DNA from: a phage
Direction: 5' to 3' (one strand)
Length of the DNA: 60,026 bases
Sequence record: PV806339.1
In this document: piece by piece, positions 36,263 to 55,130 of the stretch
Layout of the letters: the number at the start of each line of letters is the position of its first letter
Position numbering within the stretch: the stretch's first letter is position 1
The notes under the pieces: model-generated
Told to the model about the DNA's origin: nothing
The model's database searches: none
What the model saw: only the letters and a program-made list of their open reading frames with translations
Program-made: the position numbers and the translations under genes

Positions 36263-36306
36263 GTTGCCCCCTAAAGTAAAAATCCCCGTTGTTGCCTTCG
36301 GGGATA

Positions 36307-36335
36307 ATATAGGTTATACACGCGACGTATGTCAA
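36307..36335 (-). promoter_or_regulatory. sigma70-like promoter with conserved extended spacer (- strand)
   Basis: On - strand: TTGACA (36335-36330), 17-nt spacer TACGTCGCGTGTATAAC, -10 CTATAT/TATATT. Confidence 0.55.
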
Positions 36336-37503: not shown

Positions 37504-38322
37504 TTATTCCTTCGGTGGATTTGATTGGTGGCGATTTAGCCAGATGACAATCCCGGCAGTATAATTGATCACGCCGAGCAACTCCCTAACCCTTTGGTCA
37601 TGCGTTGGCAGGTTGACGCCTTCTACGACCTTCTTGCACACCTGATAGACCAAGCCGAGCGGGCTACCGATCAGGTCGGAAATAGCGTTCATCGGCTGCT
37701 GGTGGAAAGGCAGGTCGTTTGCGTGGCGTTCCCGCCCTTTACCATACGCGGCTTGCGTCAGCGCATCATGCAGCACTTTGACTAATTCGGAATAATCGTT
37801 GCTGTCTTTGACGTCCCGGAATTCGTATTTCCATGACCGGGGGGCCGAAGGTGCCACGGCTTCCGGCGCGACGAGGGCTTCGTTAAGCGGCCAGCCCTGC
37901 GCGAAGGAGAACATGATGTAATTCATTGCGTCGATGTACTGATTCTCTTCGAGACAACGACGAATGGCGTCGGAACATTGCTTCGGCCAGTCCGGCTGCA
38001 TCCATCCCAATTCCAGTCCCGGGTTTTTGCGCTCGAACTGCACCAGACGGTCAAGCATGTAGCCGAAAGTCTTCTCGGCCTGTTCAACCGTTGGCGCGCT
38101 CAGTTTAGGGCGGCGCAGCACGATGACCGTCTCGGCGTCGGCGGCTTTCGGGATGGCGATCTGATTGTCCATCATGGAATTGATAAGTTCGAGAACGTGG
38201 TCGGTCGCGTCGTCGTCCGTTTCAAAGTCGTCCATGTCGAGGTTCAGTGCGTTCATCACTGAATTGCGGAAACGCTGCGCGGATGGCTTGCCAGCGTGCT
38301 TTTGTTTTGATGCGTCTACCAT
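37504..38322 (-). CDS. hypothetical protein (272 aa)
   Basis: ATG at 38322 preceded by leader hairpin and promoter. Confidence 0.5.
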   Translation of the reverse strand: MVDASKQKHAGKPSAQRFRNSVMNALNLDMDDFETDDDATDHVLELINSMMDNQIAIPKAADAETVIVLRRPKLSAPTVEQAEKTFGYMLDRLVQFERKNPGLELGWMQPDWPKQCSDAIRRCLEENQYIDAMNYIMFSFAQGWPLNEALVAPEAVAPSAPRSWKYEFRDVKDSNDYSELVKVLHDALTQAAYGKGRERHANDLPFHQQPMNAISDLIGSPLGLVYQVCKKVVEGVNLPTHDQRVRELLGVINYTAGIVIWLNRHQSNPPKE

Positions 38323-38361
38323 AATAAAAAACTCCCGTTGGTGGATTAACCTTCGGGAGTA

Positions 38362-38390
38362 ATATTAATTACACATGTCGCGTGTGTCAA
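38362..38390 (-). promoter_or_regulatory. sigma70-like promoter with conserved extended spacer (- strand)
   Basis: On - strand: TTGACA (38390-38385), spacer CACGCGACATGTGTAAT (17), -10 TAATAT (38367-38362). Confidence 0.55.
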
Positions 38391-41553: not shown

Positions 41554-41582
41554 AATATTAGTCGTACACGCGACGTACGTCA
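41554..41582 (-). promoter_or_regulatory. sigma70-like promoter with conserved extended spacer (- strand)
   Basis: On - strand: TTGACG (41582-41577), spacer TACGTCGCGTGTACGAC (17), -10 TAATAT (41559-41554). Confidence 0.55.
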
Positions 41583-41720
41583 ATAACTTTATTCGGGGCA
41601 AAAGAAAGCCCGCGTAAAGGGATTGCGGGCTTTTGGAAGGTGGCATCCGAAGATTACCACTGGCTTAAAGCGGACAACGCAGGAGCCGATAAGGAAGCAC
41701 TATGCCGAGTCCGCAGTTAA

Positions 41721-43957: not shown

Positions 43958-44384
43958 TCAGAGGTTCCTCTTTCAGACGGTAGGTGATGGTGTCCGGGCG
44001 AGTCGCGTCGATTTCCAGTTCAGGCATCTGCCCGGTGATCAGGCGGGACGGCGTAAGGACTGCGGTGCGCAGGCCATTCTCGAACATGATGTTGGCCGCC
44101 GTGACCAGCGAAATACTTTCGATGTGGTCTTGGGTCTGGTCGAGGCGGCGCTGTAACAGTTCGACCTTCTCCGCGTTCGTGTCCGGAATGTCGAAGGCAG
44201 ACCGCAAGCCATCGATCAACGCAATAGCGTCCGCGCGGGTCAGGGGGGTAACGATCTCGGTGTCGCCGTTGTCCTTCTCGATGTAGATCTCGCCGTCCTT
44301 CTGGCCGGGCTTCTTGTAGATAAAGGCCGTGCGGGTGATGTCGCGTACCGGACTCAGTTCAATAGGGTGGTGCGTGGTTTTCAT
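43944..44384 (-). CDS. hypothetical protein (146 aa)
   Basis: ORF. Confidence 0.45.
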   Translation of the reverse strand: MKTTHHPIELSPVRDITRTAFIYKKPGQKDGEIYIEKDNGDTEIVTPLTRADAIALIDGLRSAFDIPDTNAEKVELLQRRLDQTQDHIESISLVTAANIMFENGLRTAVLTPSRLITGQMPELEIDATRPDTITYRLKEEPLNAAD

Positions 44385-44455
44385 CGGTGTGCGTCCTATA
44401 GGGTGTCAGGTCAAAAGGGTGGTACGCCATTTTTCAGGCGTGCCGTCCTACGTTT

Positions 44456-44827
44456 TTAAACTTCGTCGTCGTCCGAAACGTCGGTGTCAGTACAGGTCAC
44501 AACGGCCTGAATGAACATGCGGCCAGACGGGTAAGTCACCAGCGCGGATTCCATGCTGAACCGTTGGCCGTGGTGTTTCATGGCGTTCCGGATGGAAGAA
44601 TTAAGGCTGGCCCGCATCTTCGCTTTGAGGGCATTGGCCTCGTCCTGTACCTGCGAAAGCGTACGGTCAAGCGGGAGTTCTTGGGACAGGGTGTACACGC
44701 CACCGACTTCCAGCGCAATGAGGTTCCCCACGACGCTGTACACGCGCACGCGTGACGGCAGTTCAACATCCGGCTCGGTCGTCATCATTGCGCCAGTCAG
44801 TTCGGCCGGGCTTAGTTCTTTGCTCAT
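44456..44827 (-). CDS. hypothetical protein (123 aa), ends ...VSDDDEV
   Basis: First gene of - strand early operon; GGAG RBS; promoter upstream. Confidence 0.5.
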   Translation of the reverse strand: MSKELSPAELTGAMMTTEPDVELPSRVRVYSVVGNLIALEVGGVYTLSQELPLDRTLSQVQDEANALKAKMRASLNSSIRNAMKHHGQRFSMESALVTYPSGRMFIQAVVTCTDTDVSDDDEV

Positions 44828-44869
44828 TGGGATGGCTCCAGTTGGTTCGTTAAATGTTACGTTCGGAGA

Positions 44870-44898
44870 ACAATAGTTCTACACGCGACGTATGTCAA
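44870..44898 (-). promoter_or_regulatory. sigma70-like promoter with conserved extended spacer (- strand)
   Basis: On - strand: TTGACA (44898-44893), spacer TACGTCGCGTGTAGAAC (17), -10 TATTGT (44875-44870). Confidence 0.55.
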
Positions 44899-44951
44899 TT
44901 CATTTCATCCAGTAATTATGATGACCGGGTGACACTCCAGTTTAGTTTCAG

Positions 44952-45187
44952 CCGGATGACTTTTTGAAGTAAGGCGGGTGGCCGGGCCGCCGGGCTTCAA
45001 CCGGGTAACTTTTTCAAGTAAGCGCGGAACGTCGCAACGACAACCGGACAGGTTTTTCAAGTAAGCCCGTCAGCCGGGTGAAATTGCCCCGACGCTGGTG
45101 GACAAAACCGTCAGCCGGGTAGGTTTTTGAAGTAAGAACTGGCCGCGTCGTTCAAAATTTTTCAACCGGGTAACTTTTTCAAGTAAG
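44952..45187. repeat. array of five 22-bp direct repeats CCGG(G/A)T(A/G)(A/G)(C/G)TTTTT(C/G)AAGTAAG
   Basis: Copies at 44952-44973, 45001-45022, 45044-45065, 45115-45136, 45166-45187; copies 2 and 5 identical. Confidence 0.85.
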
Positions 45188-45493
45188 CCCGTCGGGAATT
45201 TTTATAGAGAAAGTCAGGCCCGGCGCGGCCTGCCGTTGTGGGCGGTTGTCGTTTTTGGCGGGATTTCGTACAAATCGTTATAAATCAACGGCTTAACCTA
45301 TGCGCCGATCGGCCTGTTTTGGCCCGGTTGGCGTCGGTTTTTCGTATAGAGTTCAAGTGTTTAGGACGTGGCGCGGTGTGCCGTTTGGCGGTGTGCCGGG
45401 GCGGGGGCCGTGGGGCGCGGCGGTGCAATGCGGCCCGGCGTGGCGATCGGTGGCGCTTTTATGTGCGGTTAATCAAATAATATGAAAAAAGAT

Positions 45494-45522
45494 TTGACGC
45501 ACGCCGCGTATATCATTTACAT
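45494..45522 (+). promoter_or_regulatory. sigma70-like promoter with conserved extended spacer (+ strand)
   Basis: TTGACG (45494-45499), spacer CACGCCGCGTATATCAT (17), -10 TTACAT/TACATT; followed by CCCTTCGGGGG hairpin. Confidence 0.5.
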
Positions 45523-45587
45523 TTAAATTCCCTTCGGGGGACGGGGCAAAAAGTCCCGGCGATAAACTAACTTTATGAGGTGTCACG

Positions 45588-45848
45588 ATGGAAAAGGTAT
45601 ACAACGCGATCAAGGGTCAGACGTTGCAACATTGGTTATCAATCGTTATTAAGCGCGACGAAAGCGGCACGGCAACGGTTGAACTGCATAGCACGATCCA
45701 CGTTAACCGGGTGAGCACGCTTTCTTTTTCATGGGGGAAGGAATTCACCGACGCCGATATTTTAAATGACAATGATTTATTACGCGTTATTTATCAGAAG
45801 TACGGCCGCGAAATTTTCACCGCCGAATATACCCGCGATTTCAAATAA
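45588..45848 (+). CDS. hypothetical early protein (86 aa)
   Basis: ORF downstream of promoter. Confidence 0.5.
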   Translation: MEKVYNAIKGQTLQHWLSIVIKRDESGTATVELHSTIHVNRVSTLSFSWGKEFTDADILNDNDLLRVIYQKYGREIFTAEYTRDFK

Positions 45849-45861
45849 GAGGATCAACACA

Positions 45862-46401
45862 ATGCAAACTATCATTACCAAATATTCTAACGGTTCAATT
45901 ATGGCTAAATGCTGGAATGGTTGGACGCGTTCACAGTATGACGCTGAATTAAATAGCGAACAAAATCACCGCGCGGCCGCTGAAAAGTTGATCGCTAAAC
46001 TCAATGCGAATAAATCAGTTAGTTGGGGGATTGTTGCTAGTGCGCCATCCGTGCCGGGCGTGCGTGGTACGGATAATGGCTGGACGTTTATGATCGGTTA
46101 TATTCCAGAAGTCGCGCCGCTGGATATGTCGATCACTGTTAAATTCTGCCCGGCAACAAATAAAGGCCCGGCGTATATGCGCGTTTATTCGTGGTTAGTG
46201 CCGCGCGGGATCAAGGTTAACTATTCGCCACGCGTCGCCGACGGGTCAGACATTCAAGCCAATGCACGATACGCGGCCGGGATCATGTTAGAGCGAATTA
46301 ATGAAATATGCCGCGAGGGGGGCGATCTTTTAGGCTGGAAAATTGCGGACTATGTGCAATTGTACGACGGCGATCGCCTGTTCACACTGAAAGCTAATTA
46401 A
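45862..46401 (+). CDS. hypothetical early protein (about 180 aa; start refined from ORF 45766)
   Basis: RBS AAGAGG before ATG at 45862. Confidence 0.5.
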   Translation: MQTIITKYSNGSIMAKCWNGWTRSQYDAELNSEQNHRAAAEKLIAKLNANKSVSWGIVASAPSVPGVRGTDNGWTFMIGYIPEVAPLDMSITVKFCPATNKGPAYMRVYSWLVPRGIKVNYSPRVADGSDIQANARYAAGIMLERINEICREGGDLLGWKIADYVQLYDGDRLFTLKAN

Positions 46402-46415
46402 TCCGGGGGCGCGTC

Positions 46416-46616
46416 ATGTTAATGGCTATTATCTTGATCGGTTATTCAATTATTGCGGCTGTTATATATCGTGACGCGCGGGCGGTGTGGCGTCGCTGTA
46501 AGGTTGAGCGCCGTTATTCTTTCGGGCGTAAAACTTTTTATTTACGCGAGCGTAAAACAGGCCGTTTGATCGGCTGTTCAAATAATTTTTTCACTCTTCT
46601 GTTACAAGGGGCTTAA
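46416..46616 (+). CDS. small membrane protein (66 aa)
   Basis: N-terminal TM LMAIILIGYSIIAAVIY. Confidence 0.4.
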   Translation: MLMAIILIGYSIIAAVIYRDARAVWRRCKVERRYSFGRKTFYLRERKTGRLIGCSNNFFTLLLQGA

Positions 46617-46618
46617 TC

Positions 46619-47101
46619 ATGAATCTTAATTCTATCAATAAAGATCAACGTTTATACGTCATGAAAGCGGGCGCGGGCTTTACCTGCTACGGGTTCGACG
46701 TGCTGAACAATAAAGCGCGCCGGGCGTTGGAATGGTTAAAGCGTCACGGCCGCGCGGCTGAAATGCTGTTAGGGGCAAAGGGGATCGACGTCATCGCGCT
46801 GGATATTCCCGCCCGCGTTGGTACTAAAAAACATTTTGCCGCGTGCAATAAGGTATTCGACGCCGCGCGGATCTATTCCATCGCGAGCGGCAATAAATGC
46901 GATGCGGAATATACACCGCAATTAATCGGCCTTGAGGGTCGCCGCGTGGAAGTGGTGGACGCATACGGGGAAACGCGCCGCTTTACCGTGGGGCGGTCAT
47001 CCGGCTGGATGCCTTGCCACCTTGAGATCGCCCGCCGCGATTCCAACGGCGGCCCGGCGGTGACGGGCGCGCCTTTTAAATCCGTATCCGTAATTAACTA
47101 A
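46619..47101 (+). CDS. hypothetical early protein (160 aa)
   Basis: ORF. Confidence 0.5.
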   Translation: MNLNSINKDQRLYVMKAGAGFTCYGFDVLNNKARRALEWLKRHGRAAEMLLGAKGIDVIALDIPARVGTKKHFAACNKVFDAARIYSIASGNKCDAEYTPQLIGLEGRRVEVVDAYGETRRFTVGRSSGWMPCHLEIARRDSNGGPAVTGAPFKSVSVIN

Positions 47102-47112
47102 CCGGGGGATCT

Positions 47113-47316
47113 ATGGGTCATATGTATGGCGTTATCTTGTCAAATGGTACGCATTGCGACACGTCAACCACGGAAAAGGGCGCGAAAAATTACGCCACGC
47201 GCCACGGTTACAAGGAAGTAAGCCGCCGCCTGAATTGCGGCTATGACGTCGAAATCGTAGCACATCGCGCCGGGTCGAAATGGATCGACGGGCCTGCTAA
47301 CCACTCAACCAAATAA
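47113..47316 (+). CDS. hypothetical early protein (67 aa)
   Basis: RBS GGGGGAT. Confidence 0.4.
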   Translation: MGHMYGVILSNGTHCDTSTTEKGAKNYATRHGYKEVSRRLNCGYDVEIVAHRAGSKWIDGPANHSTK

Positions 47317-47326
47317 GGGGATCACC

Positions 47327-47875
47327 ATGAAACTAAATATCACCGCGCCGGGCCTGTTCTTTAATCGTAGCGGCGACCGCGTCACCGTGGATCAAATCGT
47401 TTTAGAGAATAGCGCCGGGGCCGTCGTGTCATTCCCTGTTAAGGGCCGGATCTGGAAAATGTACCGGGGCGCTTATCGTCCGCGTGAGTTCAAGATCTGG
47501 ACGGCGGCGGGCAAGTTTTACGCGGGCGAACAATCCCGATCGCCGTGGGATATTGTCGGCGAGGTTGTCGCGGACGATGTGCGCCCGGTGTACTGGCAAG
47601 ATCTGACCGATGTCCAGAAAGCGCAAGCCGCCGCCAAATATCACAACGGGGAAGGCACGCCGGAAGATTATTTCACCTATACGCCGGATCAATTCATCCT
47701 GATTAATGGTGACGTTTACGATCTGGACGCCGACGCGGCCGTTTATGAGGTGGAAGGGTTAAAAGGTCATGTGCGCATACTGGAAAGCTCAAAGGCGGAC
47801 GGGGCCGCGTTGGCGGTGCAATGTGTGGACGGCTGGCAAGTAATAAGCGTTTACCGCGTACAGGTGGCATCATGA
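47327..47875 (+). CDS. hypothetical early protein (182 aa)
   Basis: RBS AAGGGGAT. Confidence 0.5.
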   Translation: MKLNITAPGLFFNRSGDRVTVDQIVLENSAGAVVSFPVKGRIWKMYRGAYRPREFKIWTAAGKFYAGEQSRSPWDIVGEVVADDVRPVYWQDLTDVQKAQAAAKYHNGEGTPEDYFTYTPDQFILINGDVYDLDADAAVYEVEGLKGHVRILESSKADGAALAVQCVDGWQVISVYRVQVAS

Positions 47876-48093
47876 ATAAAACCGGATTTTCGGGGAACGC
47901 CGCAAGGGCCGCGATCAAGTTTACCGCGTGCGGCGCGATCGTGGCGTTTATCGGGGCGGCGGTTATTTTCGGCGACAACGTCGGGCCATATAAAGTGTTT
48001 TTGTATACCGTCGCCGGGGGCGTATGTGTGCGCCTGATTTGGCCGACTCAAGACGAGGGCGACGCGCTTTTAAAACGGGATGACGGCCCGTAA
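47872..48093 (+). CDS. small membrane protein (about 73 aa; start refined from ORF 47821)
   Basis: ATGA overlap; hydrophobic segments AIKFTACGAIVAFIGAAVIFG and VFLYTVAGGVCV. Confidence 0.4.
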   Translation: MNKTGFSGNAARAAIKFTACGAIVAFIGAAVIFGDNVGPYKVFLYTVAGGVCVRLIWPTQDEGDALLKRDDGP

Positions 48094-48127
48094 TGGTGAC
48101 GCGGCCGACGATTAAAGAGAAAAGTTA

Positions 48128-48157
48128 TTGACGCACGCCGCGTATATCATCTATTAT
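48128..48157 (+). promoter_or_regulatory. sigma70-like promoter with conserved extended spacer (+ strand)
   Basis: TTGACG (48128-48133), spacer CACGCCGCGTATATCAT (17), -10 CTATTA/TATTAT; followed by CCCTTCGGGGG hairpin. Confidence 0.55.
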
Positions 48158-48218
48158 TAAATTCCCTTCGGGGGCCGGGGGCAATGGGGCCGACGGTTAT
48201 CAAAACAGGTACATAAAA

Positions 48219-49388
48219 ATGACTCACGATCAAATCGTTGCAATGGTTAACAAATACAGCATTAAAGCCGATCGCGCCGTTTCTTATAACTTTGATAAAT
48301 ATGGTTCGACGCAAGTCGAGATCCGCGAGATTGACGGCGGCTGTTTAGTGTGGCGCGCGTGGTCTTATGAAAGCAATTTTGAAAACGTGTTAGAAAGCGC
48401 GCTCGATCATTCCGGTGTACTGAAAACCGCCGACGAAATCGCAGAACAGGAAGCCGCCGCACGCGCTCAAAAGCTCCGCAATGACGCGATTTTCTTTGAG
48501 GTTCACGGCTTCGAAGATGATTTCATTCTTAACCTGTCCGACTTTACCCGCGCTGAAATCGAAGCGGAGATCATCGCGATGAATGCAGAATTAAACGCGG
48601 CAAGCGCCGACGCCGACGCGGCAACGTTTGACGCCGCCGATCATGTTTTACGCTCAACCAATCCGGCCGGGGAATATGTGTATTTAAAGCGCGGTTTCTG
48701 GATGTTAGATCTTGAGGACGCGGAGATCCTGAACGCGCGCCCGGATATACACTGGACAAGCCTTTACGATACCCCGATCGAATATGTGACCGTTGAGCAG
48801 GCCCGCAAGGATGACCCGGAAAGCGATTTCATCAAGCAAATGAAAGCGGGCTATGTGACCGCCCCGGCCGACTATGTCGATCGCGCGTGCGCCGCCGTTG
48901 AGCGTGGCAACGTTAACGCATCGGGGATCGTGCTGCATACCTTGCGCGACAAAATCGACGGCGAATTTTACGAAATCTCGACCCGTATTAGCCCGGCCGA
49001 ATATCAGGTTTATCGTGTGCGCGTTGTCGTGTCGTGCTGCATTGATGGCGCGTTTCATAACGTCATTGAACTGGATCGCGACGTCAACACGGTTGAACAC
49101 GTCCGCGACGTGGTGCGCGTCGGCTGCATGAAACAATACATCAAGCAAGCCCGCGCGACGTTTGCCGCGACCGGGGCCGCAACGCTGAACAATGACAAGA
49201 CGGCGACCCGTATCAAGATTAAAACCGTTGCGGGCATGACGTTGATCGCTAAAACCGAAGACGTGATTTTTTCAGAAAGCGGCCTGTTTTGCTCCGCGTG
49301 GTTAATGCGCCTTGATTTACTGGAAAACAAGACATACGCGCAAGCCGTCCTAACGTCGCAAATCAAATCAATCGAATTTATCAAATAA
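48219..49388 (+). CDS. hypothetical early protein (389 aa)
   Basis: ORF downstream of promoter. Confidence 0.55.
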   Translation: MTHDQIVAMVNKYSIKADRAVSYNFDKYGSTQVEIREIDGGCLVWRAWSYESNFENVLESALDHSGVLKTADEIAEQEAAARAQKLRNDAIFFEVHGFEDDFILNLSDFTRAEIEAEIIAMNAELNAASADADAATFDAADHVLRSTNPAGEYVYLKRGFWMLDLEDAEILNARPDIHWTSLYDTPIEYVTVEQARKDDPESDFIKQMKAGYVTAPADYVDRACAAVERGNVNASGIVLHTLRDKIDGEFYEISTRISPAEYQVYRVRVVVSCCIDGAFHNVIELDRDVNTVEHVRDVVRVGCMKQYIKQARATFAATGAATLNNDKTATRIKIKTVAGMTLIAKTEDVIFSESGLFCSAWLMRLDLLENKTYAQAVLTSQIKSIEFIK

Positions 49389-49398
49389 GGGGATCGCG

Positions 49399-49623
49399 AT
49401 GTTTTACACCGTGCTTTTAAACGCCGACTTCGAAGGGGCGACAAACGTCAAAATCTTTTACGTGGAAGGGGAAACGGTAGAAGACGCCGTGACCGCCGCG
49501 ATCGATGACATCAACGCGACCGAAGCGGAGATCGGCGGGGATGACTTCGAACCGTTAGCGCGTGACCAGTTCACGATCATTGCAGTTTTTCCGGGCTATC
49601 AGCCTAACGTGTGGGAGGGTTAA
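49399..49623 (+). CDS. hypothetical early protein (74 aa)
   Basis: RBS AAGGGGAT. Confidence 0.4.
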   Translation: MFYTVLLNADFEGATNVKIFYVEGETVEDAVTAAIDDINATEAEIGGDDFEPLARDQFTIIAVFPGYQPNVWEG

Positions 49624-49626
49624 CCG

Positions 49627-49896
49627 ATGGAAATTAACGGCGTACAGGTCAAAAGCGTTGAGCGGTTCAGCAATTACGCGGAATGGTTAGCGCGTCAAAT
49701 GGTGGCGGGCGTGCCGTTGGCGTCGCACGCTTGCCCGCATTGCGGATCGGCGTTGCACGTCATCGCAAACGGTGACAAGGGCGATCAATGGGATTCTACT
49801 TGCGCTTGTCCGGTGTGCGCGGGCTTCTTTCATCGCTCAATCATTCACGGCGAAAAGCCGGAAATAACGATCGTTAAACTGGATCGAGGTTGGTAA
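49627..49896 (+). CDS. putative zinc-ribbon protein (89 aa)
   Basis: Cys motifs CPHCGS...CACPVC. Confidence 0.45.
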   Translation: MEINGVQVKSVERFSNYAEWLARQMVAGVPLASHACPHCGSALHVIANGDKGDQWDSTCACPVCAGFFHRSIIHGEKPEITIVKLDRGW

Positions 49897-50048
49897 TTAT
49901 GGCGGGCTTATGGTTTTTAGTGGTGACGATGTGCGGCGCGGTTGGCGCTGATAATATGGCGGCCGATTGTCACGATTATGTTATTGACGCGGGGATCTCT
50001 TATGACGATTGCCGCGCGGCCGTGGCGAGGCGGTAGAAGGGGGCAACG

Positions 50049-50300
50049 ATGAATAAAGGCCAATACCGCGCCGCGCGTCGCCTGATACGTGATAACGGGA
50101 TCTATGCGTTGCGATGGCTGGACGATGACACCGCGCCGATTATGGACGTGTTAGCAAGCCAGCCGGATGACCAGTTAGAGACAAGGGCGGCGATCGTGGC
50201 GTACAGCGCCCGCGCCGGGCTTGCGTGCAATGTGCGTAAAACGGCGTCACTTGACCTTTTAGCGCGGTACCATGACCGCAAGGCGGCCGCGAATGGATAA
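50049..50300 (+). CDS. hypothetical early protein (83 aa)
   Basis: ORF. Confidence 0.4.
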   Translation: MNKGQYRAARRLIRDNGIYALRWLDDDTAPIMDVLASQPDDQLETRAAIVAYSARAGLACNVRKTASLDLLARYHDRKAAANG

Positions 50301-50544
50301 GGCGCAACGCTTAACGGCCGCACGTATGGCGGCGGATCGGTATGCCGGGATCGCAAGGGCAAAAGGTTTTAAGCGTCATATTGATGGCGTGACGTTTACC
50401 CGGGCCGATGCGGATCTAACGTGGGATGACCGGGCGCGCGCTTTCCGTGTGACGCTGTACAAAATGGACGGGGCCGCGCGTCTTGCCGTTGCCACTGTAC
50501 GCGCTAACGCGATGCTTAACGTGCTGTTAAAAGCGTTTATCTAA
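50293..50544 (+). CDS. hypothetical early protein (about 83 aa; start refined from ORF 50272)
   Basis: ATG at 50293 overlapping previous stop. Confidence 0.4.
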   Translation: MDKAQRLTAARMAADRYAGIARAKGFKRHIDGVTFTRADADLTWDDRARAFRVTLYKMDGAARLAVATVRANAMLNVLLKAFI

Positions 50545-50613
50545 AACCGAATTTTCGGGGAACGCCGCACGATCCCTTTTAACCTGTTTTGACATATTCC
50601 CCATGTATCAAAG

Positions 50614-50637
50614 GCCGCCTATCCGGGCGGCTTTTTT
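50614..50637 (+). terminator. Rho-independent terminator ending the + strand early cluster
   Basis: Stem GCCGCC / GGCGGC with loop tatccg followed by TTTTTT. Confidence 0.7.
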
Positions 50638-50648
50638 ATTGCCTTTCT

Positions 50649-50846
50649 GATATACGCGGCGTGCGTTGGTGTGCCGTGTATCGGGCCTATGGTGCGCCGC
50701 TGTAGTTGATATACGCGGCGTGCGTATGGCGGCCCGTCCTGCTTTCTTCCTTCCTGATATACACGACGTGCATCAATGCGGCCTTATGTGCGCGCTATGC
50801 CGTATGGCGGCCCGCTATGGTGCTGCATGATATACGCGGCGTGCGT
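50649..50846. repeat. four copies of the promoter-core motif in reverse orientation (GATATACGCGGCGTGCGT)
   Basis: Copies at 50649-50666, 50708-50725, 50755-50775 (variant), 50829-50846; reverse complement of the spacer core of the 45494 and 48128 promoters; no matching -10 on the - strand. Confidence 0.8.
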
Positions 50847-51307
50847 TGGTGTGCGGCTGTATATGGCTATCTATTCCCCTTTCTATGGTATCCCCTGCTA
50901 TATGGTGTGACGGGGCGTTATTGTATGCCCTTATTTCGGCCGCTATGGGGGCTAGGCGGGGCGATCGTGGTGTAAGGTATGCCTACCTATTACGATCTAT
51001 CTTGCGAGGCGTGGCGGGCGGCTGAGAAAGAATTACGGTCACGATTTCAAAAAGGTACTTACCCGCCAGTCGGTCGGCCCGGGGGTGCGCAGAGCCGCTT
51101 TCTCGGAAAATGGGCCGGATCTGCCATAGCCCCGCTTTGCGAAATCAATAACTTAGCCGAAAAACCGAATTTCTCCCGTAGGGAGTCTCCAAATCGCGGT
51201 GGTGACGGGGGTGCGGGCGGAACGGCGCTTTAGCCCCGCAATCGGTTGATTGTATTACTGTTTTACCCGGTGGGCGGGTGCTGACCAAGTCCACGGCAGC
51301 AGTATCA

Positions 51308-51590
51308 GGTTACAAGTTACAGACGGGTTACAAGTTTTTCGCTTTGTAACCTCTAACTATCTCACTGTTTTTACTGCGTTTTTCTCCTATAAAGTTACAA
51401 GTTACAAATAAAGTATAGTAATAGTCCAGAAATAGAGAAAACGAGGTAAAAATGTGAATTTTATATAGGGGGGAATTTTACCCGGGCGCTAAACCACTTC
51501 GGTTTGTAACCTGAATACCCGGATCGCTGAGAGCCGCGCCACCACTGGCCCGAACATGGTTACAAACGGCGAAAATGGTATGTAACCTTT
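51308..51590. repeat. iteron array of GTTACAA / TTGTAAC heptamers (at least 8 copies, both orientations)
   Basis: GGTTACAAG at 51308 and 51325, TTGTAACC at 51344 and 51504, tandem GTTACAAGTTACAA at 51394-51407, GGTTACAAAC at 51558, TGTAACC at 51580; AT-rich surroundings. Confidence 0.8.
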
Positions 51591-51608
51591 TGCCCGTTTT
51601 GGCCGTTT

Positions 51609-51662
51609 TCTTGCGTTTCAATAACAAATTTGTTATACGTCTTGCCCCGAATCCTGCTATAA
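51609..51662 (+). promoter_or_regulatory. candidate promoter/operator region upstream of XRE regulator
   Basis: Palindrome ACAAATTTGT, TATAAT hexamer, repeated TTTGTTATA. Confidence 0.35.
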
Positions 51663-51696
51663 TTTATTTGTTATAAACAGCAAAAATAGGTCAAAA

Positions 51697-51984
51697 ATGC
51701 AGCACGATGAATGCCGTGAAACGTTGATGGATTTCAAACGACAATTACAGACACATTTGAAGGCGATTTTACGTCGTCAGGGGGTCACACAGAGCGCGCT
51801 TGCGACGATGATCGGCGTACACCAGTCAAGATTAAGTTTCATGCTTAACAGTGACGCAGACAGAGTTTCGATCGATAAACTCATTGAAGCGATAGTGAAA
51901 CTGGACGGCGTGTTTATGGTGAAAATCGGAGATCAAACAGACATAAATCGAGTGCGGTACAAGGAGTGCGAAGACAACGTTTGA
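51697..51984 (+). CDS. XRE-family helix-turn-helix transcriptional regulator (95 aa)
   Basis: HTH GVTQSALATMIGVHQSRLSFML typical of Cro/CI-type regulators. Confidence 0.65.
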   Translation: MQHDECRETLMDFKRQLQTHLKAILRRQGVTQSALATMIGVHQSRLSFMLNSDADRVSIDKLIEAIVKLDGVFMVKIGDQTDINRVRYKECEDNV

Positions 51985-51995
51985 CAGACAAAAAT

Positions 51996-52020
51996 AAGGC
52001 CGGATTTCCCGGCCTTTTTA
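51996..52020. terminator. bidirectional Rho-independent terminator between convergent genes
   Basis: Stem AAGGCCGG / CCGGCCTT with loop atttc; A-run upstream and T-run downstream. Confidence 0.7.
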
Positions 52021-52024
52021 TCGA

Positions 52025-54610
52025 CTAAACTTCGTCTTCATCGTCAAACGGGTCTGGCTTTTTGCCGACCAGTTTTTCGACTTCTGCGTCATGCCGTTTT
52101 AACGTAGTCTGCACCCACGACGAGTTAAGTTTCCCCGCGTCGTCGAATGCCCCTTTGACCCGCTTCCTGACATAAACGCGGCCAGATTCGCCGCCAAATT
52201 TGACCACGCCGCCCGGCTTGAAGCCCAATTCCATAAGCATGTTTTTCAGGCGGTTCGTCTTCGGCATTTCCACGTCTGTCATTTCGAGGAATGCGTTTTT
52301 CAGGGACGGCACGAAGATGACGTCGCGGTGTACGCCCGGCGTCGTTCCGTCACGAAGCATTTGTGCGATTGCGCCTTCCACGCCATCGTCAGACGCGTCG
52401 GCCATGACCGCGAATGCTTCGGTGTCCTGCGGTGCGTGTCCTTTGGCATCGAAATCCTTTCCGATCTCCCAATCGAGGAACCACTTTTTGATAGCAGGTG
52501 CGTGGTTTTCGATTGCCCGGTACACGTTTTTGAAGAAGCGCGCGCGTTCAGTCTTCGACCCGTAAACCCGCTCCATGTCCAGATGATTTTCTGCCTGCGT
52601 GGACACCACCAGATAACGACGCTGGTTTTCATCGAGTGGCAATGCGTTGAAGTGGTTGGTGAACATCATTTTGCTGCTGGTGTTCACGACTTCCTTCGGC
52701 TTGCGGCCCTTTGGCTCAATCTGGAAGCGATCGTTTGTGATGAATTCCTTCTGGCGTTCCACCGCGCTGTACCGATCGCCTTTGTCGTAGATCTCTTCCA
52801 CGATTTTCAGGATGTGGCCCTCGGCCCAATCGCTGAAACGGCCATTCATCACGGTGTTTGACACATAGCCCACGTTCGACGCGCCGAGCATCCGCGACAT
52901 GATGATGCCGAGCGTCGTTTTACCAGAACCATGCGCACCACGGATCAGAAGCGAGTAGTTGATGCGTTTCGTTGGGTGCTGAATAACCCACGCCATCCAG
53001 TCCAGAACATAGCGGCGTTCCTTCTCGTTCGGGAAAAGCACGATGAAGAAGTCTTTGATGATCTCCAGCGCCTTTTTGTCGTACGGAGAAAGGTCAGTCG
53101 CGGCCTCCGGAATGGATTCAGGGTCAAAAGAGTTCAGCCACGTACGCCCACGGTCGTCAATAAAGAATTCCGGCCCGATCACCCCCTCTTTCGGCTTCCA
53201 CACAGATTCCGGCATGTCACCGTGCATCGCCGGGTAGTACATCGCGTCCCAAACGATAGGAACCGGGCGGACTACCGACGCATAGTGGACAGGCTTGAAG
53301 GCTTCTTCCTCAAACACGCATTTTTTCGCAAAAGCGACGTCGAAAGCGCCTTTTGTGATGTAATCGCCCGTGGTTTTTTCGATAAAACTGTCATTTGCCT
53401 TCGAGAAAACGAAGTTTTTCAGCCACTGCGGAGTCTCTTTTGACCCGTAATCGAAGCCCAAAAGCTCCCTTTTGTCACCAGCAGTGAGGCGGAAGTTGTT
53501 GATCCTGCGGTATGCTTCGGCCGCAATCTGGACGATGGCCTTGCGGGTAAGCCCGAAAATCTGCGCTTTTTTGAATGATTCGGCCCACGCATTCCAGTCA
53601 TTCGCCTCGGTACACTCGGCGAAAGCCTCGCGGTACTCGATGGCGCGTTCTTCCTGCTCGGCTTTCTCGATGTCCTGCACTTCTTTGATGATGGTGCCGA
53701 GCGTGATCAGTCGAGTCGAGTTGTGCGCGAAGCCCTTATCCCACTTGTATTCGAAATCACCTTCGTCGAAGTTGTGTGCCTGCATGGCCCATTCGCGGGC
53801 AATGGCCTTCGCCTCGTCCTGATCGCGGCAGGAAATTTGCAGCGCGGCCAGTACGGTGATGTAGTTCTCGTAATCTTCCGGGTTCGGGTATTTCAGGACG
53901 ATGTCGCGCAGTTCATCGTACGTGCCGTCCCACTTTTTGACGTCAGACAGCGCGGCCCAATCGTCATCGTCTGCCGAACCGATAGACTCATAACCGTTCA
54001 TTGGCCGTTTGACCATTGTCCAGCCCAAGTCCTTCGCGTATCGGTCGAATTCGGCGGCGATCTCGCGAGCGGTATCGAGGCTGATCTCTTCGAGGTCAAG
54101 GTCGGCGGCGTTGTTCAGCGGATTCTCGCCATCAATCCAGTAATAGTCGCGCTTGGTGTCCGGGTGGATACCGTACGCAACGAACTGCTGGCCGTCGGCG
54201 AGGATTTCAACTGCATGGCGCTGGCCGAAGTCGTCTTCCCACACGCCGGATTTCACTTTGGCGAACGGGTTTTCGGTTCGGTACAGGTAGAGTTTCTTCG
54301 GCTCCCGGCCGATACGACATGGCGCTGCACCGACGTTCTCGGCGATCCAGTCTGCCATGTGCGCCACGGCGTCTTCATCGTAAACGTCGATGTCAACCGC
54401 CGGGGTGTATTTGGTCAGAATCCCGATGCCGTTATTCGTATAGCGTTTCGCCCAACGCTGGATCTGCTCCTTATCATTGATTGTTCGTTCCCAATCTTCA
54501 CCGATAGGGCGTTTGCCCGCACCCTTCTTATCGGCGTCCGGGGCGTAGATAGGTACGATGGTGTACCCATTCCCCCAAAGCGTTTCGCCGTACTCTTGCC
54601 AGTAGTTCAT
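52025..54610 (-). CDS. bifunctional DNA primase-polymerase / SF3 (D5/P4-type) helicase (861 aa), ends ...DDEDEV
   Basis: N-terminal prim-pol-like region (GIGILTKYTPAVDIDVYD); C-terminal Walker A LIRGAHGSGKTTLG. Confidence 0.7.
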   Translation of the reverse strand: MNYWQEYGETLWGNGYTIVPIYAPDADKKGAGKRPIGEDWERTINDKEQIQRWAKRYTNNGIGILTKYTPAVDIDVYDEDAVAHMADWIAENVGAAPCRIGREPKKLYLYRTENPFAKVKSGVWEDDFGQRHAVEILADGQQFVAYGIHPDTKRDYYWIDGENPLNNAADLDLEEISLDTAREIAAEFDRYAKDLGWTMVKRPMNGYESIGSADDDDWAALSDVKKWDGTYDELRDIVLKYPNPEDYENYITVLAALQISCRDQDEAKAIAREWAMQAHNFDEGDFEYKWDKGFAHNSTRLITLGTIIKEVQDIEKAEQEERAIEYREAFAECTEANDWNAWAESFKKAQIFGLTRKAIVQIAAEAYRRINNFRLTAGDKRELLGFDYGSKETPQWLKNFVFSKANDSFIEKTTGDYITKGAFDVAFAKKCVFEEEAFKPVHYASVVRPVPIVWDAMYYPAMHGDMPESVWKPKEGVIGPEFFIDDRGRTWLNSFDPESIPEAATDLSPYDKKALEIIKDFFIVLFPNEKERRYVLDWMAWVIQHPTKRINYSLLIRGAHGSGKTTLGIIMSRMLGASNVGYVSNTVMNGRFSDWAEGHILKIVEEIYDKGDRYSAVERQKEFITNDRFQIEPKGRKPKEVVNTSSKMMFTNHFNALPLDENQRRYLVVSTQAENHLDMERVYGSKTERARFFKNVYRAIENHAPAIKKWFLDWEIGKDFDAKGHAPQDTEAFAVMADASDDGVEGAIAQMLRDGTTPGVHRDVIFVPSLKNAFLEMTDVEMPKTNRLKNMLMELGFKPGGVVKFGGESGRVYVRKRVKGAFDDAGKLNSSWVQTTLKRHDAEVEKLVGKKPDPFDDEDEV

Positions 54611-54888
54611 TCAAGGATTTCCCCTGTTTCGCTGTCCGTTTTGATCCATGAAGGGTTAGTCAGCCAATGCGGACGGATGCCGCAGTGAGGGACAGCTTTG
54701 CAAACTTTTTCGGCCACGCTGCTCGTTACGTTGTTCTGCACGGCCCATAACAATGTCGGGTAACTGATCTTCGCTGCCTTCGCCAGTTCGGCCATTCTGG
54801 CGTTCGGGTCTACCTCCAAAGCCGCTTGCATCATGAGAAATTTGACCCGCATCCGGTCGTCGTTTAAAGCCCAATCTGGAAATCGCAT
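54607..54888 (-). CDS. small HTH-like protein (93 aa), upstream of primase
   Basis: HTH-like MAELAKAAKISYPTLLWAVQ; ATGA overlap with primase start. Confidence 0.45.
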   Translation of the reverse strand: MRFPDWALNDDRMRVKFLMMQAALEVDPNARMAELAKAAKISYPTLLWAVQNNVTSSVAEKVCKAVPHCGIRPHWLTNPSWIKTDSETGEILE

Positions 54889-54930
54889 AGTGATGCCCTC
54901 GCGTAATGTGCGCGTGTTATAGATTTGCGG

Positions 54931-54959
54931 ATATTATATCCGGGCTTGACATCTGTCAA
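54931..54959 (-). promoter_or_regulatory. sigma70-like promoter for primase operon (- strand)
   Basis: On - strand: TTGACA, 17-nt spacer GATGTCAAGCCCGGATA, -10 TAATAT; -35 lies within palindrome TTGACATCTGTCAA. Confidence 0.5.
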
Positions 54960-55048
54960 GTTGGCCAGTTATTCGGGTACCAAAGGCGCTTTATGTCCGG
55001 AAAACAAAGGGCTTGCGGTACCCGAATAAAAAATTTCTAAAAAAGTGT

Positions 55049-55078
55049 TTGACAGTGATTCGGCGTTTGGGCCATACT
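55049..55078 (+). promoter_or_regulatory. sigma70-like promoter for + strand replication genes
   Basis: TTGACA (55049-55054), 18-nt spacer, -10 CATACT (55073-55078). Confidence 0.5.
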
Positions 55079-55130
55079 TCATCCCGTCAACACGACACGA
55101 CCTTTTAAACACTTAACGGAGTAGAAAATT

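What the first reader, a model, noticed from the sequence alone, without database searches (positions are those of the whole stretch)
50649..50846. Four reverse-oriented copies of the promoter spacer core without a matching -10
GATATACGCGGCGTGCGT (reverse complement of ACGCACGCCGCGTATATC) occurs at 50649, 50708, 50755 (variant) and 50829, just after the early-cluster terminator. On the - strand they lack a proper -10 and would point antisense into the early genes, so they look like binding-site decoys or a regulatory/titration array rather than promoters. Their position beside the iteron region suggests a combined control/origin locus.
Basis: seen in the sequence. Interest (0 to 1): 0.55.

Follow-up and report, generated by a model that had tools for sequence, protein, structure and literature searches.

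The report
Promoter-less operator array beside phage cos
Four copies of the DNA site found inside this Chi-like phage's early promoters sit, without any promoter, next to the right end of the phage chromosome; they are most likely extra landing sites for the phage's own early-gene regulator, in an arrangement that is conserved across the phage family but whose purpose is untested.

Summary
TGATATACGCGGCGTGCGT occurs exactly at 50648, 50707 and 50828, with a 3-mismatch variant at 50755. Two more exact copies lie on the other strand inside promoters P1 and P2 (6 matches, 0.19 expected by chance).

The window is a Chi-like phage genome (Chivirus). The motif is a 17-bp two-fold symmetric operator, AYRYACG-N3-CGTRYRT, so "reverse-oriented" has little meaning. 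It overlaps the -35 hexamer of all six strong sigma70-type promoters of the right arm. The four array copies have no -10 on either strand.

The array lies between the last operon's terminator and the right cohesive end (cosN 51084-51095), 238-436 bp from the end.

Every Chi-like genus examined has promoter-less copies there, weakest in Yonseivirus. Their sequence tracks that genome's promoter operators. In phage JC01 the operator changes in both places while cosN and the small-terminase DNA-binding region stay the same.

The best candidate binder is the 93-aa Cro/XRE-like protein encoded upstream of primase.

The array is therefore an auxiliary operator cluster, not promoters. Whether it acts as a sink, a barrier, a cos-end architectural element or an origin is unresolved.

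It is undescribed, moderately interesting, and a new variant of a known kind.

The parts
50648..50666 (.). Array copy A1. The 19-mer is TGATATACGCGGCGTGCGT; the 17-bp operator is 50650-50666. It starts 3-4 bp after the terminator U-run.
   Evidence: Exact match. PWM score 23.6 bits against a shuffle maximum of 17.6. No -10 on either strand. Invariant in 6 Chivirus genomes.
50707..50725 (.). Array copy A2 (operator 50709-50725).
   Evidence: Exact match. 23.6 bits. No -10 on either strand. Invariant in 6 Chivirus genomes.
50755..50773 (.). Array copy A3, a variant reading TGATATACACGACGTGCAT (operator 50757-50773). The same position holds a perfect consensus copy in phage FSL SP-088.
   Evidence: 19.5 bits. 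No -10 on either strand.
50828..50846 (.). Array copy A4 (operator 50830-50846). Its centre is 211 bp from the conserved cos-flank motif, a position kept in five of the seven lineages measured; Enc34 (209) and Soft (210) are within 2 bp and JC01 has no site there.
50610..50644 (+). Intrinsic terminator of the last rightward right-arm operon: hairpin 50610-50635 followed by a U-run.
   Evidence: RNA fold dG -17.4 kcal/mol, z = -2.6. The same hairpin plus TTTTTTATTGCC tail precedes the array in the Serratia (Smarc5) and Providencia (Stilesk) phages; Hafnia phage Enc34 has a hairpin there with a different tail, TTTTTTGTG.
51084..51095 (+). cosN: the 12-base cohesive-end sequence GGTGCGCAGAGC. This is the junction of the right and left virion ends.
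   Evidence: Unique in the window. The sequence was determined experimentally for phage Chi (PMC4342425). Related records that start or end at cos place it here.
45494..45523 (+). Promoter P1: TTGACG-N18-TACATT. The operator ACGCACGCCGCGTATAT (45497-45513) overlaps the -35 hexamer and the spacer.
48128..48157 (+). Promoter P2: TTGACG-N18-TATTAT. It carries the identical operator at 48131-48147.
44870..44898 (-). Leftward promoter TTGACA-N17-TATTGT with operator ACATACGTCGCGTGTAG (44879-44895).
   Evidence: Conserved in ER24, SP-088, Smarc5, Enc34 and BP12C.
41555..41583 (-). Leftward promoter TTGACG-N17-TAATAT with operator at 41564-41580.
38362..38390 (-). Leftward promoter TTGACA-N17-TAATAT with operator at 38371-38387.
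36306..36335 (-). Leftward promoter TTGACA-N18-TATATT with operator at 36316-36332.
54607..54888 (-). Candidate operator-binding protein: a 93-aa Cro/XRE-like helix-turn-helix (HTH) protein, called 'HTH2' here. Its stop codon overlaps the primase start codon. Its own promoter (54959, - strand) has no operator.
   Evidence: Present in every Chi-like genus, always directly upstream of primase. Its putative recognition helix diverges exactly where the operator diverges, in JC01. The AF2 model has pLDDT 65 and its top structural matches are all XRE/434/Cro/C-protein HTH domains. This evidence is correlative only.

Best explanation
The four elements are promoter-less copies of a 17-bp two-fold symmetric operator, AYRYACG-N3-CGTRYRT. 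In this Chi-like phage the same operator overlaps the -35 hexamer and upstream spacer of all six strong sigma70-type promoters of the right arm: P1 and P2 rightward, and four leftward.

The array copies therefore bind the same phage-encoded dimeric regulator. That regulator is inferred to be a repressor, because a protein bound over -35 to about -17 would exclude sigma region 4. The best candidate is the 93-aa Cro/XRE-like protein encoded just upstream of primase (54607-54888, - strand).

The array sits in the roughly 440-bp untranscribed spacer between the terminator of the last right-arm operon and the right cohesive end, at distances from cos that are kept across genera. Regulator bound there cannot control initiation. 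The most likely role is an auxiliary operator cluster: a high-affinity regulator-DNA complex at the chromosome end. Such a complex would compete with the promoters for regulator, shaping the threshold and timing of right-arm shut-off, and would form a protein barrier or marker next to cos.

Shown here: the sequence facts, the absence of promoter features, the conservation, the co-variation and the position.

Inferred: that a protein binds, which protein it is, that it represses, and what the array does.
For: - The motif is statistically real, and it is conserved as islands within variable spacers.
- The same 17-mer family, and no other sequence, scores above the shuffle maximum. Six of those sites have a 5-6/6 match to the -35 hexamer and a -10 with A2 and T6 at 17-18 bp. 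The four array sites have neither, on either strand.
- Promoter-less copies between the last right-arm gene and cos are present in Chivirus, Serratia phage Smarc5, Redjacvirus, Enchivirus, a metagenomic relative (L033), Jacunavirus, and more weakly Yonseivirus.
- There is co-variation. PWMs built only from promoter-embedded operators find strong sites in the right end of the same genome, with z > 7.
- In JC01 the operator has changed to ACACACTYCGGRTGTGT in 7 promoters and also in 3 right-end copies. cosN and the N-terminal region of the small terminase subunit (TerS) are essentially unchanged there. HTH2 is only 35% identical, and its putative recognition helix differs.
- HTH2 is universal in the group. 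The other HTH protein (51697-51984) is absent from Enc34, JC01 and the other genera.
- The HTH2 model matches XRE/434/Cro-type domains, which bind palindromic operators as dimers.
Against: - No binding, transcription or genetic data exist for any Chi-like phage.
- The assignment to HTH2 is correlative. The model is only moderately confident (pLDDT 65), the fold-search E-values are weak (0.3-1.5), and the roughly 30 right-arm proteins of unknown function cannot be excluded.
- A pure sink or barrier does not explain why the sites keep their distance from cos rather than from the terminator.
- In Chivirus all four copies keep one orientation, so the small asymmetry of the site may matter.
- The right-end sites are weak in Klebsiella phage Soft, where the best site has z of about 2.7.
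Confidence: 0.55

Rival explanations
1. Architectural element of the right cos end. Regulator dimers bound on a fixed lattice next to cos help terminase finish (or start) packaging, or help the ends join or be protected, much as IHF sites do within lambda cosB. Under this reading the transcription sites are a second use of the same protein.
For: - Site centres at about 211, 330 and 391 bp from the conserved cos-flank motif recur in Chivirus, Smarc5, L033, Enc34, the Redjac-like phages and Soft, although the DNA between the sites is not alignable between genera.
- The distance to the terminator varies from 404 to 515 bp, so the anchor is cos, not the terminator.
- The operators are interleaved with strand-specific CTGTAT/CTATGG repeats that run up to cos.
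Against: - The motif does not track terminase. The TerS N-terminal region and cosN are the same in Chi and JC01, while the motif differs.
- JC01 site positions differ, at 336, 301 and 255 bp.
- The sites are 238-436 bp from cosN, further than any lambda cos subsite (my knowledge of lambda).
- Better cosB candidates lie on the other side of cosN in all genera: TAGCCCCGC boxes plus an IHF-like site.
Confidence: 0.17
2. Replication-origin iterons. The array is where an initiator (HTH2, with the translationally coupled primase-helicase) assembles, and the copies in promoters are its transcriptional operators, as in iteron plasmids and lambda ori.
For: - There are four roughly 19-bp repeats in one orientation.
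- The candidate binder's gene overlaps the primase start codon.
- After circularisation the array is about 450 bp from an AT-rich region that carries 8 GTTACAA repeats next to primase.
- In JC01 that left-end region contains operator-like half-sites.
Against: - The array itself is GC-rich (36-52% AT), with no DnaA box and no IHF site.
- The promoter of the HTH2-primase operon lacks the operator, unlike Rep autoregulation.
- The GTTACAA/ATTACAA repeat block next to primase is a more conventional origin candidate, and in Chi and Enc34 it is unrelated in sequence to the operator.
- Spacings of 48-120 bp are much wider than those of known iteron arrays (my knowledge).
Confidence: 0.12
3. Cryptic or antisense promoters, or promoters for a non-sigma70 holoenzyme, producing RNA across cos or antisense to the early genes.
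For: On the + strand the copies start with -35-like hexamers: TTGATA (5/6) at A2, and CTGATA or ATGATA (4/6) at the others.
Against: - There is no -10 with A2 and T6 at any spacing from 16 to 19 bp on either strand, in this phage or in the other genera (sequences).
- There is no Rfam hit.
- No phage RNA polymerase or sigma factor is annotated in the group.
Confidence: 0.03
4. Non-functional relics of duplicated promoters that lost their -10, or products of recombination between short repeats.
For: Copies 1 and 3 share upstream flank sequence (CCTTYCTGATATAC), which suggests a duplicated two-site unit. The array copies are near-identical to that genome's P1/P2 operators, as gene conversion would produce.
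Against: - The motif is conserved while the spacers drift (p = 3.5e-6).
- The copies persist across six genera with the specificity switch followed in JC01.
- Position relative to cos is conserved.
Confidence: 0.06
5. Binding sites for a conserved host transcription factor or for RNA polymerase itself.
For: The site overlaps a consensus -35 hexamer in the promoters.
Against: The operator differs between phages of closely related enterobacterial hosts (ACG-N3-CGT arms in most genera, ACW-N3-WGT-type arms in JC01), and it changes together in promoters and array. The array copies lack the TTGACA hexamer on the - strand (2/6).
Confidence: 0.03

Closest known systems
Cro/CI-type operators of lambdoid phages and phage 434, and C-protein operators of restriction-modification systems
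   Same: A 14-17-bp pseudo-palindrome overlaps promoter core elements. The candidate binder's model matches these HTH domains. Sites occur in several copies of graded similarity.
   Different: This is a virulent-type phage with the operator in six dispersed promoters, plus a promoter-less cluster at the chromosome end. The regulator's own promoter carries no operator. Binding is not demonstrated.
Promoter-less auxiliary repressor sites: coliphage 186 CI flanking sites FL/FR, lambda OL-OR long-range looping, and mycobacteriophage L5 gp71 'stoperators' (from my knowledge of the literature; L1/L5 multiple asymmetric operators also appear)
   Same: Repressor sites that do not overlap a promoter. 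They act through cooperativity or looping, or as elongation barriers. In this window P1-P2 and P2-array are 2.5-2.6 kb apart, similar to the lambda OL-OR distance.
   Different: The sites here are palindromic, not asymmetric. They are clustered behind a terminator rather than spread through transcription units. They are anchored at fixed distances from cos.
Iteron origins with a related inverted-repeat operator (F RepE, pPS10 RepA, lambda O/ori); from my knowledge
   Same: Four roughly 19-bp repeats in one orientation, plus related symmetric copies inside promoters.
   Different: There is no adjacent AT-rich unwinding element or DnaA box. The spacing is wide and irregular. The operator is absent from the promoter of the candidate initiator operon.
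Lambda cosB (gpNu1 R sites interleaved with the IHF site I1); from my knowledge
   Same: Several protein sites at fixed positions next to cosN, interleaved with a second repeat type.
   Different: The sites are 238-436 bp from cosN. Their sequence tracks the promoters, not terminase. The conserved TAGCCCCGC boxes and an IHF-like site on the other side of cosN fit cosB better.
Decoy or titration loci (E. coli datA for DnaA; synthetic decoy-site arrays); from my knowledge
   Same: A cluster of high-affinity sites with no regulated gene. It could sharpen or delay the response of the real targets.
   Different: The decoys and the targets replicate together on one phage genome, so the ratio stays at 4 to 6. 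No measurement exists.

Membership tests
sigma70 promoter | -10 hexamer (TATAAT-like, with A at position 2 and T at position 6) 16-19 bp downstream of a -35-like hexamer | tested here: not met
   None of the four copies has one, on either strand (best matches 0-3 of 6, none with both A2 and T6). The six promoter-embedded copies all do. The generic scan finds 0 promoters in 50500-51750.
sigma70 promoter | -35 hexamer resembling TTGACA | tested here: inconclusive
   On the + strand: CTGATA, TTGATA, CTGATA and ATGATA (4-5 of 6). On the - strand: 2, 2, 4 and 2 of 6. The resemblance is a by-product of the operator arm TGAYAY.
Cro/CI/XRE-type dimer operator | Two-fold symmetric site of about 14-17 bp | tested here: met
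   The site is ATATACG-CGG-CGTGCGT in the array and ACGCACG-CCG-CGTATAT in P1/P2. The symmetric arms ACAYACG / CGTRTGT recur in 10 window sites and in five other genera.
Cro/CI/XRE-type dimer operator | Overlaps a promoter core element | tested here: not met
   Met for the six promoter copies, where the operator begins at base 4 of the -35 hexamer. Not met for the four array copies, which have no promoter. The array copies are therefore auxiliary, promoter-less operators.
Cro/CI/XRE-type dimer operator | Sequence co-evolves with a phage-encoded HTH regulator | tested here: met
   The operator switch in JC01 is mirrored in its right-end copies, and it coincides with a divergent HTH2 recognition helix (35% identity). 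TerS (60% overall, N-terminal region nearly identical) and cosN are unchanged. This is a correlation from one switch event.
Cro/CI/XRE-type dimer operator | Specific binding by the regulator | not testable with these tools
   Needs EMSA, footprinting or ChIP.
Iteron-type replication origin | Three or more direct repeats of about 17-22 bp | tested here: met
   Four copies in one orientation, with spacings of 59, 48 and 73 bp.
Iteron-type replication origin | Adjacent AT-rich unwinding element and host-factor sites (DnaA, IHF) | tested here: not met
   AT content is 36-52% over 50650-50950. There is no DnaA box in 50545-51700. The IHF-like sites occur only beyond cos, at 51143 and 51239. The nearest AT-rich stretch (62-76% AT) is at 51300-51700, on the other virion end.
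Iteron-type replication origin | Related operator in the promoter of the initiator gene (autoregulation) | tested here: not met
   The promoter of the HTH2-primase operon (TTGACA-N17-TAATAT at 54959, - strand) has no operator. No PWM hit lies in 54890-55130.
Lambda-type cosB (small-terminase sites) | Immediately flanks cosN | tested here: not met
   The sites end 238 bp from cosN and extend to 436 bp from it.
Lambda-type cosB (small-terminase sites) | Specificity follows the small-terminase DNA-binding domain | tested here: not met
   The TerS N-terminal region is nearly identical in the window and JC01, and cosN is identical, yet the motif differs.
L5-type stoperators | Asymmetric repressor sites inside transcription units, in one orientation relative to transcription | tested here: inconclusive
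   All four copies share one orientation in Chivirus. However, the site is symmetric, the copies lie downstream of a strong terminator, and orientation relative to the promoters differs between genera.
Intrinsic terminator | GC-rich hairpin followed by a U-run | tested here: not met
   The motif can form a 5-bp hairpin (ACGCG-GCG-TGCGT). Only the P1 copy, on the - strand, is followed by a T-rich tail. No array copy was reported by the scan.
Known RNA family | Match to an Rfam covariance model | tested here: not met
   There are only two sub-threshold chance hits in 44000-53000, and neither overlaps the array.

The most novel reading that the evidence does not exclude
The regulator that shuts off the right-arm (early) promoters also builds a fixed-geometry nucleoprotein complex on the last roughly 450 bp of the chromosome. 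This complex would act in DNA maturation, for example by slowing or positioning the incoming terminase so that the terminal cos is cut, or by holding or protecting the chromosome end that is probably ejected first. That would couple early-gene shut-off to packaging. The sites keep their distance from cos (about 211, 330 and 391 bp, close to a 60-bp lattice) across genera whose intervening DNA is unalignable. A pure transcriptional sink does not explain this.
Probability: 0.15. Interest if true: 0.7.

Novelty: new variant of a known kind. Interest (0 to 1): 0.45.

Why it matters
Chi-like phages (Casjensviridae) are widely isolated and are being used for therapy and biocontrol, yet their gene regulation is essentially unstudied. 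I found no paper that mentions this motif, these promoters or a regulator.

This analysis provides:
- a testable regulatory map: one operator family governing all six strong promoters of the right arm;
- a named candidate repressor;
- a conserved promoter-less operator cluster tied to the chromosome end.

If the cluster turns out to act in packaging, end handling or replication, it would be an example of a transcription regulator reused as a chromosome-end architectural factor. If it is a sink or barrier, it is a natural case of decoy-site tuning of a lytic timing switch. Either way, the experiments needed are simple: EMSA, TSS mapping and site mutants.

Tried and rejected
- **Promoters in either orientation:** rejected. 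There is no -10.
- **Terminators or structured RNA:** no U-run after the array copies and no Rfam hit.
- **Coding sequence:** ORFs 50666-50830 and 50706-50975 overlap the array, but related phages carry 1-nt indels there.
- **Small terminase as binder:** rejected. Its DNA-binding region and cosN do not change where the motif changes.
- **The XRE-type HTH gene next to the array (51697-51984) as binder:** rejected. The gene is missing from Enc34, JC01 and the other genera that still have the array. Palindromes ATAACAAATTTGTTATA just upstream of it look like its own operators.
- **DUF7300, the first gene after P1, as a Cro-like autoregulator:** absent from Enc34 and the Redjac-like phages.
- **Right-arm proteins:** Pfam, PHROGs and PDB sequence searches gave no function for any of them.
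- **An operator in the HTH2 leader:** a conserved ACACGCGCACAT element exists in four genera, but it does not fit the operator. Left open.
- **Helical phasing of the sites:** spacings are not multiples of 10.5 bp.
- **Host-factor sites:** no DnaA box, and IHF-like sites only beyond cos. RecBCD Chi sites show no pattern near the end in this window.
- **Literature:** searches for the motif or for any transcription study of these phages found nothing. PMC3754727 is not held.
- **Homologue searches:** the word-indexed search for HTH2 found only two near-identical proteins. The exhaustive search found 11 cluster representatives.
Full report
**What the window is**

The region around the finding is 93-97% identical to many Salmonella and Escherichia Chi-like phages of the genus Chivirus, family Casjensviridae. 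The window's length, 60,026 bp, equals the genome size reported for Escherichia phage Kompetensportalen/LuPh5 (PMC12671086), so it is probably a complete, circularly permuted genome.

The experimentally determined cohesive-end sequence of phage Chi, 5'-GGTGCGCAGAGC (PMC4342425), occurs once, at 51084-51095. Related records that begin or end at cos map their termini to exactly this point.

Read from cos in the + direction, the genome contains, in order:
- a non-coding stretch with GTTACAA repeats;
- a small XRE-type HTH gene (51697-51984);
- primase and a 93-aa HTH gene, both on the - strand;
- replication genes, terminase genes (more than 10 kb from the end), virion genes and lysis genes;
- a roughly 17-kb 'right arm' of mostly unknown small genes, first leftward and then, from 45.5 kb, rightward.

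The finding lies at the very end of that right arm.

**Check of the observation**

The 18-mer is present exactly at 50649, 50708 and 50829 and with three mismatches at 50756. Its reverse complement is present exactly at 45497 and 48131. That is six matches against 0.19 expected by chance. With the preceding T it is a 19-mer repeated at start-to-start spacings of 59, 48 and 73 bp.

It starts 3-4 bp after the U-run of a strong intrinsic terminator, whose hairpin spans 50610-50635 with dG -17.4 kcal/mol. This terminator ends the last rightward operon (the last ORF ends at 50544).

In an alignment of six Chivirus genomes, 72 of 76 motif columns are invariant, against 107 of 155 columns between the copies (Fisher p = 3.5e-6). 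One-base indels in relatives rule out the overlapping ORFs.

**What the motif is**

P1 (45494) and P2 (48128) are near-consensus sigma70 promoters, TTGACG-N18-TACATT and TTGACG-N18-TATTAT.

The shared sequence is not just 'spacer'. It begins at the fourth base of the -35 hexamer and is two-fold symmetric: ACGCACG-CCG-CGTATAT in P1/P2 and ATATACG-CGG-CGTGCGT in the array. These are the same two arms, flipped.

A symmetric weight matrix built from these sites picks out ten sites in the 60-kb genome at or near the level of the best shuffle: P1, P2, the four array copies, and four more at 36316, 38371, 41564 and 44879.

Each of those four lies inside a leftward promoter of the same design, TTGACA/G-N17-18-TAnnnT. 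Only eight sequences in the genome match TTGAC[AG]-N16-18-TAnnnT. Six carry the operator. One is intragenic. One is the promoter of the HTH-primase operon, which lacks the operator.

The motif is therefore the operator of one promoter class that drives the whole right arm. I call these promoters 'early' by inference only; no transcription data exist.

**Why the four copies are not promoters, terminators, RNA or genes**

At spacings of 16-19 bp from the -35-equivalent, on either strand, no array copy has a hexamer with both A at position 2 and T at position 6. The best matches are 0-3 of 6, whereas all six promoter copies have such a hexamer. The generic scan finds no promoter in 50500-51750.

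The motif can form a 5-bp hairpin, but the array copies have no U-run. Rfam has nothing there.

**Comparative evidence**

The same layout recurs in every Chi-like lineage I could read. The order is: last right-arm gene, a terminator-like hairpin with a T-run where I read the sequence, three or four promoter-less operator copies, a conserved block, then cos.

- FSL SP-088: four perfect copies at the same spacings, although the region is only 85% identical overall.
- Serratia phage Smarc5.
- Providencia phages Stilesk and PibeRecoleta and a Redjac-like contig.
- Hafnia phage Enc34.
- A metagenomic relative, L033.
- Cronobacter phage JC01.
- More weakly, Klebsiella phage Soft.

In each genome the array copies resemble that genome's own promoter operators. 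For example, the P2 variant of Enc34, CACACGCGGCATGTA, reappears in one array copy.

Matrices built only from promoter-embedded operators find strong sites in the promoter-less right end of the same genome (z > 7). For four of the five matrices, the highest score is in that matrix's own genome.

The decisive case is JC01. Its seven promoters carry ACACACTYCGGRTGTGT instead of the ACG-N3-CGT type, and three copies of this new operator, one of them a perfect match, sit in its right end. cosN and its flank are unchanged there.

In Enc34 and the Redjac-like phages the array copies read in the same sense as the promoters. The 'reverse orientation' seen in Chivirus is therefore a lineage detail of a symmetric site.

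**Who binds**

A host factor is unlikely, because the operator changes between phages of closely related enterobacteria, and it changes in promoters and array together.

The small terminase subunit (1797-2366; DUF1441) is unlikely. Its N-terminal region is almost identical in the window and JC01 (60% identity overall), and cosN is identical, yet the operator differs.

The XRE-type HTH gene next to the array (51697-51984) is missing in Enc34, JC01 and the other genera. None of the right-arm proteins has a recognisable DNA-binding domain, and only one 73-aa protein among them is conserved in all genera.

The one regulator-like protein present everywhere is the 93-aa protein at 54607-54888 (- strand). 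It is always directly upstream of primase, and its stop codon overlaps the primase start codon.
- Its helix-turn-helix segment, AELAKAAKISYPTLLWAVQNN, is conserved in the four lineages with ACG-N3-CGT operators that I aligned (the window, L033, Enc34 and the Redjac-like contig; 58-73% identity to the window protein).
- In JC01 that segment reads QQLSRLADVNYHTALKAQEAGR, at 35% overall identity.
- An AlphaFold model (pLDDT 65, pTM 0.52) has four helices. All its best structural matches are XRE/434 repressor/434 Cro/C-protein/SinR-type domains, though with weak E-values.
- The family is tiny: 11 cluster representatives among 1.8 billion proteins.

This is correlative evidence. I put the assignment at about one in two.

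**What the array does**

Shown: these are conserved, promoter-less operators in an untranscribed spacer at the right chromosome end.

Inferred: a protein bound over the -35 hexamer and upstream spacer of near-consensus promoters would repress them. The array would then hold the same repressor where there is nothing to repress.

The simplest roles are two. One is a high-affinity sink or nucleation cluster that shapes the threshold and timing of right-arm shut-off. The other is a protein barrier behind the terminator.

One observation does not fit a pure sink. Measured from the conserved cos-flank motif AAAAAGGTACTT (51049), the site centres are:

| Lineage | Site centres (bp from cos-flank motif) |
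|---|---|
| Window | 391, 332, 284, 211 |
| Smarc5 | 391, 332, 212 |
| L033 | 395, 336, 212 |
| Enc34 | 448, 329, 209 |
| Redjac-like phages | 390, 310, 211 (plus 451 in Stilesk) |
| Soft | 327, 259, 210 |
| JC01 | 336, 301, 255 |

The terminator-to-cos distance varies from 404 to 515 bp, and the DNA between the sites is not alignable between genera. The sites are therefore anchored to cos, roughly on a 60-bp lattice. They are interleaved with strand-specific CTGTAT/CTATGG repeats. This keeps a cos-end architectural role alive as the main rival.

An origin role is the next rival. It is weakened by the GC-rich composition, by the lack of DnaA or IHF sites in the array, by the absence of the operator from the HTH-primase promoter, and by the better-looking GTTACAA/AT-rich block beside primase.

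Conserved TAGCCCCGC boxes and an IHF-like site just right of cosN in all genera suggest that cosB lies on the left end, as in lambda. If so, the array would be on the end that is packaged last and probably ejected first. That is analogy, not evidence.

**Comparison with what is known**

The array works like auxiliary operators: the 186 CI flanking sites, lambda OL-OR, L5 stoperators, or decoy clusters such as datA. The operator itself looks like a Cro/434/C-protein-type site.

The array fails the defining tests for a sigma70 promoter, an intrinsic terminator, a lambda-type cosB site and, on two of the three criteria tested, an iteron origin (see the membership table).

I found no description of the motif, the promoter class, the regulator or the array in the literature.

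**Verdict**

The 'reverse orientation', 'spacer core' and 'beside the iterons' parts need correcting: the site is a symmetric operator, it is found in six promoters, and cos lies between the array and the iteron-like repeats.

This is a new variant of a known kind: a promoter-less operator cluster that is family-wide, cos-anchored and located in a virulent-type phage. Interest is moderate (0.45). It would be higher if the cos-anchored geometry proves functional.

Noticed in passing
window 44951-45187: Five copies of RCCGGRNNNNTTTTTSAAGTAAG lie in one orientation between the divergent promoters at 44898 (- strand) and 45494 (+ strand). These are the only five TTTTT[CG]AAGTAAG sequences in the genome. 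The spacing of 49, 43, 71 and 51 bp is identical in FSL SP-088 and Serratia phage Smarc5 and nearly so in Providencia phage Stilesk. This is an unexplained second repeat array, possibly an origin or a site for another regulator.
   Followed up: partly
window 51303-51590: Eight GTTACAA/TTGTAACC elements (7 of the genome's 10 GTTACAA) lie in a 62-76% AT region between cos and the HTH/primase genes. Enc34 has ATTACAA repeats at the same place, and JC01 has ACACAC-type repeats that resemble its own operator arms.
   Followed up: partly
window 51127-51135, 51231-51239 and 51143-51155: Two TAGCCCCGC boxes and an IHF-consensus match (AATCAATAACTTA) lie just to the right of cosN. They are conserved in all genera, including JC01. 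They are a candidate cosB (small-terminase sites) on the left chromosome end.
   Followed up: partly
window 50677-50950: There is strand-specific enrichment of CTATGG/TATGG (8 on the + strand, 0 on the - strand) and CTGTAT, interleaved with and downstream of the operators. The same oriented repeats occur in the right ends of Smarc5, the Redjac-like phages and L033. The segment around 50900-50996 is the most conserved non-coding stretch between genera (82% identity to Providencia phages).
   Followed up: partly
window 45524-45545, 48158-48180, and the leaders of the leftward promoters (e.g. 38350-38362, 36290-36305): Transcripts from the operator-bearing promoters would begin with small GC hairpins closed by UUCG- or GAAG-type loops: TAAATTCCCTTCGGGGG is identical in P1 and P2, and CTCCCGAAGG or CCCCGAAGG occurs in the leftward ones. 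These may be 5' stabilising stem-loops.
   Followed up: no
window 54889-54925 (- strand leader of the 93-aa HTH gene): A conserved ACACGCGCACAT element lies between the -10 hexamer and the start codon of the HTH-primase operon in four genera. It does not fit the operator. It may be an RNA structure or a different control site.
   Followed up: partly
window 51621-51637 and 51659-51675: A perfect and a near-perfect palindrome, ATAACAAATTTGTTATA, lie immediately upstream of the XRE-type HTH gene (51697-51984). They are likely that protein's own operators. The gene is specific to Chivirus.
   Followed up: no
window 37742-37758: An eleventh, weaker operator-like site, CCATACGCGGCTTGCGT (14.7 bits), lies in the leftward cluster. 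It has a -35-like hexamer (TTGACA in phage BP12C) but no clear -10.
   Followed up: no
window 54940-55045: Further palindromes lie in the divergent region between the HTH-primase operon and the replication genes: TTGACATCTGTCAA, and TTATTCGGGTACC...GGTACCCGAATAA. The second is conserved in Enc34 and L033. They suggest a separate control system for the replication module.
   Followed up: no
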